A DNA stretch of 64,000 bases from Lama guanicoe (lineage: Eukaryota). Location: contig MU057352.1 of NCBI GenBank assembly GCA_013239625.1, positions 32,452,904 through 32,516,903 on the forward strand, written 5' to 3'. This document shows, piece after piece, positions 13,001 through 15,996 of the stretch (positions within the stretch are counted from its first letter, which is position 1; each line of letters begins with the position of its first letter). Both the position numbers and the translations under genes were made by a program. The notes under the pieces were generated by a model. It saw nothing but the letters and a program-made list of their open reading frames with translations, searched no databases and was not told the DNA's origin.

Positions 13001-15996
13001 CCCTCACTTGCCCTTTCCAGCTGCTGTGGGTGGAGGTCATTTGTCCTCTTGCAGGGAGGAGAGGTACCCCTGCATCCCAGCCTTGTCTGAAAGGACAGAG
13101 GAGCCCCAGCAGCGGTAGCACCAAACCCGAAGGAGGCTGCCGAGACCAGCCAGCAGGTTGTTCCCAAGCGGGACCCAGCACCCCTCTCTGCCCTGACCGA
13201 CCCCCTGGCCTGTCCCTGCAGTGCTGAACAAGGACATTGCAGCCTGCCGCACGGCCACCATCACAGGGACGCTCAAGCGGCCGTCGCTGCCCGAGGAGGA
13301 GAAGCTGAAGCTGGCCCACGCCAAGGCGCCCCCCAACTTCAACAGCCTGCCAGCCAACGTGTCCAAGCTGCACCTGCATGGCTCGCCCCGCTGCCCGGGC
13401 GGCCCCCTGCCCGACTTCCCCAACCACTCGCTGACCCTCAAGAAAGACCGGGCGCCCAAGTCGTCCTTTGTCGGCGATGGGGACATCTTCAAGAAGCTGG
13501 ACACGGAGCTGAGCCGGGCCCAGGAGAAGGCCCTGGACACGAGCTACGTGATCCTGCCCACGGCCACAGCCACGCTGCGGCCCAAGCCCCAGGAGGAACC
13601 CAAGTACAGCATCCACATCGACCAGATGCCCCAGACCCGCCTCATCCACCTCAGCATGGCTCCTGACGCTGGCCGCCCAGCCCGCAGCCCACCCTCCCGC
13701 CAGACCCCCGGAGGTGGGCCCCCCGAAAGCCTGAAAGAGCCCGGGGAGCCTGCTGCCCACCCGGGGCCCAGCACGGGGCCCAGCACGGGGCCCGGGACCA
13801 AGAATGAGAATGTCACCACCTTGTCCGTGAGCTCCCTGGAGGTAAGGGCAGCCCAGGGGCAGGGAGGCAGGGGCCAGGTGGGCCCTAGCCAGCAATGGAC
13901 AGGCACATTGTGGGCACTGTGGGTTTGGGCCGGGGCTCAGCAGATGGGACTGAGGGTGTAGGGCGTCCCAGGTGAGGCTGGCGGCCAGCTTCAGGGAGCC
14001 CAGGAGTGGGGTGCCTGGAGGCCAGCATCTTGGCTCACCCCTGCCGGAAGGAGTCCCATTGTTAAGAAGAGAGACTGAGAACTTGCCTTTGCCTGCTGGC
14101 AAGAGATAGGGCTTTCTGGGCCCTCATAACTGGGAGCTGGCGCCTATGCTTAAACAGCCTCTTGTACCCTTGGTGGTGGTCTCACCCACTGCACAGGGGT
14201 TCAAGAGCCCACAGCCAGGACGCTGAGCTGGACTTGAACCAGCTTGAATCTAGCCCCTTCCGTGGTTGGGCACTCATGCCAGCCAGTCCCTCCTTAGACC
14301 AGTCCAAAACCTGGAGTTGACCCCCAGGCCTTGGTCAGCCTGTGGAATGGGGACTCAGAGACAGGAAGGGTGGGGAGCAGTCAGGCCCAGCACCCTTGAG
14401 GAGCCCCACCCTCCCCAGGCTGGGCTCCCACCTCCTGGATTATGGCCTCTGGTTATGCAGCCCTGGGTCCTGGTTCTGTGGCCACCCAGTCATGCCACGG
14501 CCCTGTGTCCAGACCTCTTTGTCCTGGGAGTGTGTCCTGGGCAGCCTGAGCTGGACACCCTTGCCCAGCCCTGGCACTGTCCTCGAGGTGGGACAGAAGG
14601 TAAGTCAGGGCTCATCACAGCCTGCCCTGCCTTCTAGGGCTTCTGGCTTCTGTTTCCTTAGGCCCAGTGACCCCTCATTCTGCCCACCGTCTTCCCCTAG
14701 AGCCCCCTGTCTGGGCTTCCTGTGTCTCCGGGCAGGGGTGACCTCCAAGGGGCCTGGGCACTGAGAGCCATAGCTTCAGTGCAACTAGAGGCGTGTCTCC
14801 CAGGACTTGGCTGGGACCGAGGGCAGGCATCCAGGTGAGGGGGTCCCTGGCCTCCTTTGTCCTCCGGCAAGGACTTGTGGTTGGGGGATTTGGGGGAATC
14901 TGGTTGTGAATGTGCGCAAACCCCTTCTCCCCACAGCGGCGGAAATCCCGATATGCGGAACTGGACTTTGAGGTGGGTCCTGGTTTCCCCTGCCCCACAC
15001 GCCTGGGCCCAGGCCTTCCAAAAGGCAGGGAGGGGTCTGGGGAGGAGGACCCCGCCCTGACCAGGAGGCCAGGCTCCAGGAGCCTGCCTTGGGTGGGGCA
15101 GGGCAGGGCAGCCCCCTCCTGGCTCAGGACTTGCTCCCCTTCTCCCCCTGCAGAAAATCATGCACACTCGGAAGCGGCACCAGGACATGTTCCAGGACCT
15201 GAACAGGAAGCTGCAGCACTCGGAGAAGGACAAGGAGGTGCTGGGCCCTGACAGCAAGGTCTGGAGGAAGCGGGGCGGGGTGTGGGGTGGGCGGGGCTGA
15301 GGGCAGGGGCGGGGTGAGGCTGTGGGAAGCCCTGTAGGTGAGGCTGCCTTCTCTCCTTCCTTCCACCCTACTTCATTCATTCGTTCGTTCAGCCTTTTGG
15401 GAGGGCTGGCCTGACCCAGCCCATTCTACGTACCCGGAGGAGCAGGGCAGGCAGAGGCGTCTGTCCCAGGGGCCCCGTCTGGAAGGACAGGCGGGGCACT
15501 GGGCTGGGGAAGCCTGGGCAGGGCTGCCTCCCAGAGGAGGGCGACAGCCAGGCGAGAGGCCCTGAGTGGGCAGGGGCTTCCAGCTGCCCTTCCCTGCAGC
15601 CCCCCCCCTACCCAGTGGTGGGGGGCCTTCACCCTCGTGCGGTCTGGGAGGGCTCTGCTGCTGCACTTCCCTCTCTGGGCTGGGGTCTCCCTGCCGCCCA
15701 CGCCTGCCTTTCTCACTGTCTGCCTCCTTGTCTCCACTCCCCACCTGCTCGGCATCTCCGTCTCGGGCCCACCGCCTCCACCGCCCGCCGGCCAGCAGCC
15801 AGAAAAGCAGCAGACGCCCAACAAGCGGCCCTGGGAGAGCCTCCGGAAAGCCCACGGGACGCCCGCGTGGGCGAGGAAGGAGCTGGAGCCGCCGCCGCCG
15901 TCGCCGTTGGAGCTGCGGAGCGTGGAGTGGGAGAAGTCGGGAGCCACCATCCCGCTGGTGGGCCAGGACATCATCGACCTCCAGACCGAGGTCTGA
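932..15996 (+). CDS. ADGRB1: Adhesion GPCR B1 (BAI1), 3' partial spliced CDS (TM5 to C-terminus)
   Basis: Exons 932-1017, 6140-6311, 9495-9590, 11113-11152, 13222-13841, 14937-14972, 15154-15258 and 15799-15996 all have GT-AG boundaries and compatible phases. They translate to [52 protein letters not shown]...[16 protein letters not shown]...[11 protein letters not shown], which is recognisable BAI1. The 5' exons lie outside the window. Confidence 0.97.
2893..2991 (+). CDS. ADGRB1: Putative alternative ADGRB1 cassette exon, 33-aa ICL3 insert ([33 protein letters not shown])
   Basis: ttgcag|T...GCCAT|gttagt; 99 nt; symmetric phase 2-2; no stop. It ends ASNAM-ASLWSSC, as in the recalled BAI3 (...TTASNAMASLWSSC) and BAI2 (...SARNAMASLWSSC) loops. 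Confidence 0.78.
6140..6311 (+). CDS. ADGRB1: ADGRB1 exon, TM6-TM7 (ASLWSSC...VHCILRRE)
   Basis: ccgcag|G...AGAGAG|gtggg; 172 nt; phase 2 to 0. Confidence 0.96.
9495..9590 (+). CDS. ADGRB1: ADGRB1 exon, helix 8/proximal tail (VQDAVKCR...HAQLM)
   Basis: ccccag|GTC...ATG|gtaggg; 96 nt. Confidence 0.96.
11113..11152 (+). CDS. ADGRB1: ADGRB1 small exon ([13 protein letters not shown])
   Basis: ctgcag|ACT...TCAG|gtgag; 40 nt; phase 0 to 1. Confidence 0.95.
13222..13841 (+). CDS. ADGRB1: ADGRB1 large cytoplasmic-tail exon ([10 protein letters not shown]...SVSSLE)
   Basis: ctgcag|TG...CTGGAG|gtaag; 620 nt; phase 1 to 0; corresponds to ORF 13221..13961. Confidence 0.96.
14937..14972 (+). CDS. ADGRB1: ADGRB1 exon ([12 protein letters not shown])
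   Basis: ccacag|CGG...GAG|gtggg; 36 nt. Confidence 0.95.
15154..15258 (+). CDS. ADGRB1: ADGRB1 exon with ELMO-binding RKR helix ([35 protein letters not shown])
   Basis: ctgcag|AAA...AAG|gtctgg; 105 nt. Confidence 0.94.
15799..15996 (+). CDS. ADGRB1: ADGRB1 last coding exon, ends in PDZ-binding motif QTEV
   Basis: Tandem acceptor cag|cag|[26 protein letters not shown]...[11 protein letters not shown] at 15994-15996. Confidence 0.96.

What the first reader, a model, noticed from the sequence alone, without database searches (positions are those of the whole stretch)
13700..13760. ADGRB1 tail lacks the polyproline region that binds IRSp53/BAIAP2
Seen in sequence: the tail reads ...[22 protein letters not shown]... 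with an in-frame junction at 13727/13728, no N gap and no polyproline run anywhere in the exon. Recalled knowledge: human BAI1 has ...[50 protein letters not shown], about 32 aa more. This proline-rich region distinguishes BAI1 from BAI2/3 and binds the IRSp53 SH3 domain. The ELMO-binding RKR and the PDZ motif QTEV are retained. Inference: lineage-specific loss of one signalling module, effectively a natural deletion mutant. Assembly collapse of a CCN repeat is the main alternative.
Basis: partly seen in the sequence, partly recalled or inferred. Interest (0 to 1): 0.75.

Follow-up and report, generated by a model that had tools for sequence, protein, structure and literature searches.

The report
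Suspect polyproline loss in camelid BAI1
This camelid assembly's copy of the brain receptor gene ADGRB1 (BAI1) lacks about 31 proline-rich codons that pig, horse, bats and rat keep, but the spot is one where draft assemblies often break, so it is more likely an assembly error than a real loss, and raw reads could not settle it.

Summary
The 620-nt tail exon (13222-13841) reads [13 protein letters not shown] in frame at 13727/13728, with no N and no proline run. Pig, horse and rhino have 31 residues between these anchors. The biological reading is doubtful. Bactrian and dromedary models keep the distal part of the tract, so a real loss must postdate the split from Camelus. The site is a known-type trouble spot (79% GC). 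30 of 60 sampled placental species have only broken models, with scattered breakpoints, and dog, hamster and vervet each have one broken and one tract-bearing model. 18 of 23 short-read fragments stop or derail here. None of the 14 best public runs holds more than 32 of 39 sampled words. Against artefact: the junction is seamless, none of the 23 fragments skips the tract seamlessly, and this assembly keeps 85 similar tracts elsewhere. No reads could be laid. Odds: artefact about 0.58, real lineage loss about 0.27. Even if real, impact looks modest: birds, reptiles, amphibians and fish lack the tract, and a lab deletion still rescued dendrite growth (PMC6713510).

The parts
13222..13841 (+). 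ADGRB1 cytoplasmic-tail exon, 620 nt, AG..GT, open frame
   Evidence: orthology
13725..13730 (+). In-frame junction E|S (13727/13728) where about 31 proline-rich codons of other placentals are absent
13762..13785 (+). 12-bp tandem duplication (GPST twice), absent from both Camelus models
14937..14972 (+). 36-nt exon [12 protein letters not shown], intact
15154..15258 (+). Exon with the RKR motif (15169-15177; ELMO-binding per PMC4736325), intact
15982..15996 (+). QTEV PDZ-binding motif and stop codon, intact

Best explanation
The assembled exon lacks about 93 nt of proline-rich coding sequence, most likely because short reads thinned out over this very GC-rich tract and the two flanks were joined without a gap, so the living animal probably still has the tract. 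The join landing in frame would be a one-in-three chance. Shown: the gap in the assembly, and frequent breakage of other assemblies and short-read contigs at this site. Inferred: low coverage in this assembly's own reads, and the misjoin itself.
For: (1) Hot spot: of 60 placental species (76 named records), 30 have no run of 6 or more P in any retrieved model, with breakpoints that differ from record to record; dog, Chinese hamster and vervet each have one model without and one with the run. (2) Of 23 unnamed ENA/Logan fragments that reach the left anchor, 18 stop or run into unrelated letters before, in or just after the tract and 5 pass through with it; two end at GGGP and GGPP, within two residues of the window's left break. 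(3) Both Camelus models are themselves broken at this site yet keep the distal tract. (4) Of 14 runs holding half or more of 39 sampled words, 13 hold 0.82 (32 words) and one 0.80; they span 4 organism labels and 6 studies; none reaches 1.0. Junction plus duplication would remove 5.5 words on average, P(exactly 7) = 0.14. (5) Local GC is 79% even without the tract; the assembly has 55,231 pieces, and 1 of 30 polyproline loci checked runs into N 6 bases after the match. (6) GC-rich coding sequence is a documented source of false losses and false indels in short-read assemblies (PMC9516821, passages).
Against: No reads were laid on the junction (0 contigs in 4 of 4 runs), so there is no direct evidence. 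The join is seamless, in frame and has no N. 0 of 23 short-read fragments skip the tract seamlessly. No repeat of 8 nt or more flanks the junction. The assembly holds 85 other Q+9P-type tracts, so it can resolve such sequence. The missing distal motif is not found elsewhere in the assembly (0 matches; only the two flanks match). The 7 missing words cannot be placed: junction alone predicts 3.2 (P of 7 or more = 0.03), two ordinary SNPs predict 6.5, and index filtering or shared drop-out could also make a plateau. The 30-of-60 count is of protein models, many probably patched over gaps, and is inflated because odd models form their own clusters and the query lacked the tract. No camelid, ruminant or whale model with the whole tract was retrieved; pig is the only artiodactyl with it.
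Confidence: 0.58

Rival explanations
1. A real in-frame deletion became fixed in South American camelids, or in this species, after the split from Camelus. The receptor would keep ELMO and PDZ signalling but lose its proline-rich SH3-binding stretch and so probably IRSp53 binding.
For: Seamless in-frame junction, intact splice sites, rest of the tail intact. PxxP motifs in this part of the tail fall from 15 in pig to 1. Partial shortening is seen in models from large contigs (sloth, elephant shrew), and the golden mole model shows a similar near-total loss. The tract is dispensable in non-mammals and in a dendrite-rescue assay (PMC6713510). Nearby changes (L to R at 13674, P to T at 13704, 12-bp duplication) would fit relaxed constraint (inference).
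Against: None of the 14 best-holding runs carries all sampled words; a fixed deletion should let some close relatives approach 1.0 (inference). The site breaks in many drafts. No second camelid record shows the junction.
Confidence: 0.27
2. The deletion is real but private or rare: one allele of the sequenced animal that the assembler preferred because it is easier to sequence.
For: Explains both the seamless junction and the plateau at 32 of 39 words in other runs.
Against: No alternative haplotype with the tract is in the assembly, although that is expected of a haploid consensus. No read evidence.
Confidence: 0.1
3. Simple collapse of the CCN repeat by the assembler.
For: The missing block is centred on a CCN repeat (orthologues).
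Against: A collapse should leave a shortened run and the unique flanking codons on both sides; all are gone. No flanking repeat at the junction. 85 comparable tracts survive in the assembly.
Confidence: 0.05

Closest known systems
Mammalian ADGRB1/BAI1 cytoplasmic tail (pig UniRef A0A287BET6, P0313; horse, rhino, rat)
   Same: Same exon, same flanks, RKR and QTEV retained.
   Different: About 31 residues between PPE and SL are absent; extra GPST repeat.
Engineered BAI1-deltaPRR, human residues 1407-1430 removed (PMC6713510, passages read)
   Same: In-frame removal of the proline-rich region with RKR and PDZ motif kept.
   Different: The window lacks about 31 residues, not 24. The lab mutant rescued dendrite overgrowth and RhoA activation; IRSp53 binding is not reported in the passages read.
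Broken ADGRB1 models of other drafts (dog XP_022282215, golden mole XP_006830914, Neotoma, tarsier, Camelus bactrianus A0A9W3FFZ7, Camelus dromedarius KAB1257948)
   Same: Loss of all or part of the same tract with the frame kept.
   Different: These are protein models whose DNA I did not see, so many may be gaps bridged by false introns; the window's loss is seamless in DNA.
Non-mammalian ADGRB1 (birds, turtle, lizard, amphibians, shark, sturgeon)
   Same: No polyproline run at this position; longest P run 1-2.
   Different: They have a different Q/S-rich stretch of similar length, not a deletion.

Membership tests
ADGRB1/BAI1 orthologue | N-terminal TSR/GAIN and 7TM exons in order upstream of the tail | tested here: met
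   Dromedary P0180 and P0048 match exons in L037-L041 and window 932-11166, in order and mostly at 95-100% where the match stays within an exon; not every exon was recovered.
ADGRB1/BAI1 orthologue | RKR helix motif | tested here: met
   15169-15177
ADGRB1/BAI1 orthologue | C-terminal QTEV | tested here: met
   15982-15996
ADGRB1/BAI1 orthologue | Proline-rich region in the tail | tested here: not met
   Absent in the assembly; also absent from non-mammalian ADGRB1, so it does not define the orthologue group outside mammals.
Natural lineage-specific deletion allele | Junction present in raw reads | tested here: inconclusive
   0 contigs laid in 4 of 4 runs
Natural lineage-specific deletion allele | Shared by other individuals or assemblies of the lineage | tested here: inconclusive
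   Best runs plateau at 32 of 39 words; both Camelus models keep the distal tract; no South American camelid protein was retrieved.
Natural lineage-specific deletion allele | Tract present in outgroups | tested here: met
   Pig, three equids, rhino, three pangolins, seven bats, two shrews
Natural lineage-specific deletion allele | Loss of IRSp53 binding | not testable with these tools
   Only a motif count: PxxP 15 in pig, 1 in the window.
Short-read assembly false loss | GC-rich site that breaks in other assemblies | tested here: met
Short-read assembly false loss | Sequence present in better data from the same species | not testable with these tools
   No such record or read was reachable.

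The most novel reading that the evidence does not exclude
South American camelids, or this species, really deleted the whole mammal-specific polyproline module of BAI1 after splitting from Camelus, returning the tail to a proline-poor state like that of non-mammals: a living knock-out of the BAI1-IRSp53 link with ELMO and PDZ arms intact.
Probability: 0.27. Interest if true: 0.45.

Novelty: not a real feature. Interest (0 to 1): 0.2.

Why it matters
If an artefact, it is one more false loss at a GC-rich exon, and a warning that ADGRB1 tails in draft genomes cannot be trusted. If real, it would be a natural deletion of a binding site whose function reviews still list as unknown (PMC12860997 table passage; PMC4736325 figure legend), so healthy animals without it would bound how much the BAI1-IRSp53 link matters. 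The side result that the tract is confined to mammals in this sample (weak in echidna and marsupials, a 6-11 P run in placentals) holds either way.

Tried and rejected
Laying contigs of 4 of the 24 listed runs (X2, X3, X6, X9) on 13650-13960 gave no laid record; this says nothing either way. Two exact-pattern scans of metagenome contigs for host DNA on either side of the junction found 0. Three protein searches, three cluster listings and one representative search (15, 18, 35; 41) did not return a full-length camelid, cow, whale or human tail; the two newer dromedary models found (P0180, P0192) end before this exon. A second copy or unplaced piece of the tract in the assembly was not found. 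'Most laurasiatherians lack it' was rejected. Alternative splicing as the cause was rejected: the loss is in genomic DNA inside one exon. The match of the window's left break with the Neotoma and Microtus models (both end at PPE) was not counted, since a cryptic donor could set that edge (inference). No fold or complex was predicted: a disordered proline tract would not be informative. Paper searches 'ADGRB1 + polyproline' (1 paper, listing only), 'ADGRB1 + alpaca' (1, unrelated), 'BAI1 + proline-rich region + deletion mutant' (3, listing only) and an alpaca-assembly search (4, listing only) showed no report of this loss.

Full report
Observation. The window carries the 3' part of ADGRB1 on the + strand. 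The long tail exon runs 13222-13841 (620 nt, AG/GT) and reads ...[23 protein letters not shown]..., with the junction at 13727/13728. There is no N nearby. Nine placentals with continuous models have 30-34 residues between PPE and SLG (31 in pig, horse, rhino); the window has none. RKR and QTEV are intact. Its human sequence is recall; no call returned the human tail.

Lineage. The best named full-gene matches include Camelus models, and the camelid-type SLKEPGE is shared. The window differs from both Camelus models in this exon (a GPST repeat and two residues) and from dromedary at about 5 of 116 codons in an intron read-through. I infer a South American camelid. An earlier AI note on this genome says the same (e1-8046406; not tested).

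Is the tract general? In 76 named records from 60 placental species (duplicate isoforms, records ending before the exon, unnamed records and non-placentals left out), 30 species have a run of 6 or more prolines in at least one model: pig, three equids, rhino, three pangolins, seven bats, two shrews, dog, rodents, colugo, vervet, afrotherians, sloth. So loss is not the laurasiatherian norm. The other 30 species have only broken models, each broken differently, and include Old World monkeys although the vervet has the tract. Dog, Chinese hamster and vervet have both kinds of model. This 30 of 60 is not a prevalence: odd models form their own clusters and the query favoured them. No camelid, ruminant or whale model had the whole tract, but Bactrian camel, goat, bison and baiji keep the distal QPLPPPP..LE.APP part and dromedary keeps ALEPAPP. 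A real loss would therefore be younger than the split from Camelus. Outside mammals the tract is absent: 57 of 57 bird-type records and 7 of 7 other non-mammals printed have no run over 2; echidna and marsupials have runs of 4.

Is the gap in the animal? Direct evidence is lacking: contigs of 4 of 24 listed runs laid nothing, and no South American camelid protein was retrieved. Indirect evidence for an artefact: the flanks are 79% GC. Of 30 unnamed short-read fragments, 23 reach the left anchor; 18 of these stop or derail at the site, 5 pass with the tract, and two end within two residues of the window's left break. The 14 best public holders of 13560-13960, from 4 organism labels and 6 studies, plateau at 32 of 39 words (13 runs) or 31 (1 run); none is complete. 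Junction plus the 12-bp duplication would cost 5.5 words on average, but the junction alone only 3.2 and two SNPs 6.5, so the missing words cannot be placed; index filtering could also make a plateau. False losses and indels in GC-rich exons of short-read assemblies are documented (PMC9516821, passages).

Evidence the other way. The join is seamless and in frame. None of the 23 fragments shows a seamless skip. No repeat flanks the junction. The assembly keeps 85 Q+9P-type tracts; 5 of the 30 fetched have an N within 1.5 kb and one within 6 bases. The missing piece is nowhere else in the assembly. Sloth and elephant shrew models show partial shortening and golden mole a near-total loss; I did not see their DNA.

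Mechanism. Most likely (0.58): a misjoin across a coverage drop-out; the animal's BAI1 would be ordinary. Rivals: real fixed deletion (0.27), private allele (0.10), plain repeat collapse (0.05; unique flanking codons are missing too). If real, the receptor would keep ELMO/Rac and PDZ coupling and probably lose SH3 partners: PxxP motifs drop from 15 in pig to 1. That step is inferred.

Literature. PMC4736325, PMC12860997 and PMC6316137 (passages) state that IRSp53/BAIAP2 binds the proline-rich region; the first says BAI2/3 lack it, and the first two leave the function of the link open. The primary mapping (Oda 1999) was seen only as a reference entry. PMC6713510 (passages) deleted human residues 1407-1430 and found that the mutant still rescued dendrite overgrowth and RhoA activation. 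Four searches found no report of a camelid loss (listings only); no supplements were read.

Verdict. As biology it is unproven and more likely false. Interest 0.2; 0.45 if reads confirm it.

Noticed in passing
window 13762-13785: 12-bp tandem duplication (GPST twice) 34 nt after the junction; absent from both Camelus models and from the 20 other records aligned. May be lineage-specific or a second assembly oddity.
   Followed up: partly
window 13674-13676 and 13704-13706: L to R and P to T relative to pig, goat and rhino just upstream of the junction; the Camelus models do not cover these positions.
   Followed up: no
P0061-P0121, P0140, P0141, P0253, P0076: At the position of the placental polyproline, birds and lizards have a short polyglutamine run, echidna has QQQQ followed by short proline runs, and marsupials short proline runs: the tract looks like a mammalian P-for-Q homopolymer gain. 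Two lizard-type records have a separate polyproline run about 30 residues upstream.
   Followed up: partly
L037 2022-2798: The signal-peptide leucine run is 4 residues shorter than in dromedary P0180; goat and dolphin records are also short, so this varies naturally.
   Followed up: no
P0154: An ENA fragment runs from this exon straight into a peptide that looks like translated Illumina adapter (recalled, not tested), a sign of very thin coverage here.
   Followed up: no
window 37230-40346: ORF fragments on the - strand (39540-40346) look like exons of a HEAT-repeat MROH-type gene (recalled resemblance only).
   Followed up: no
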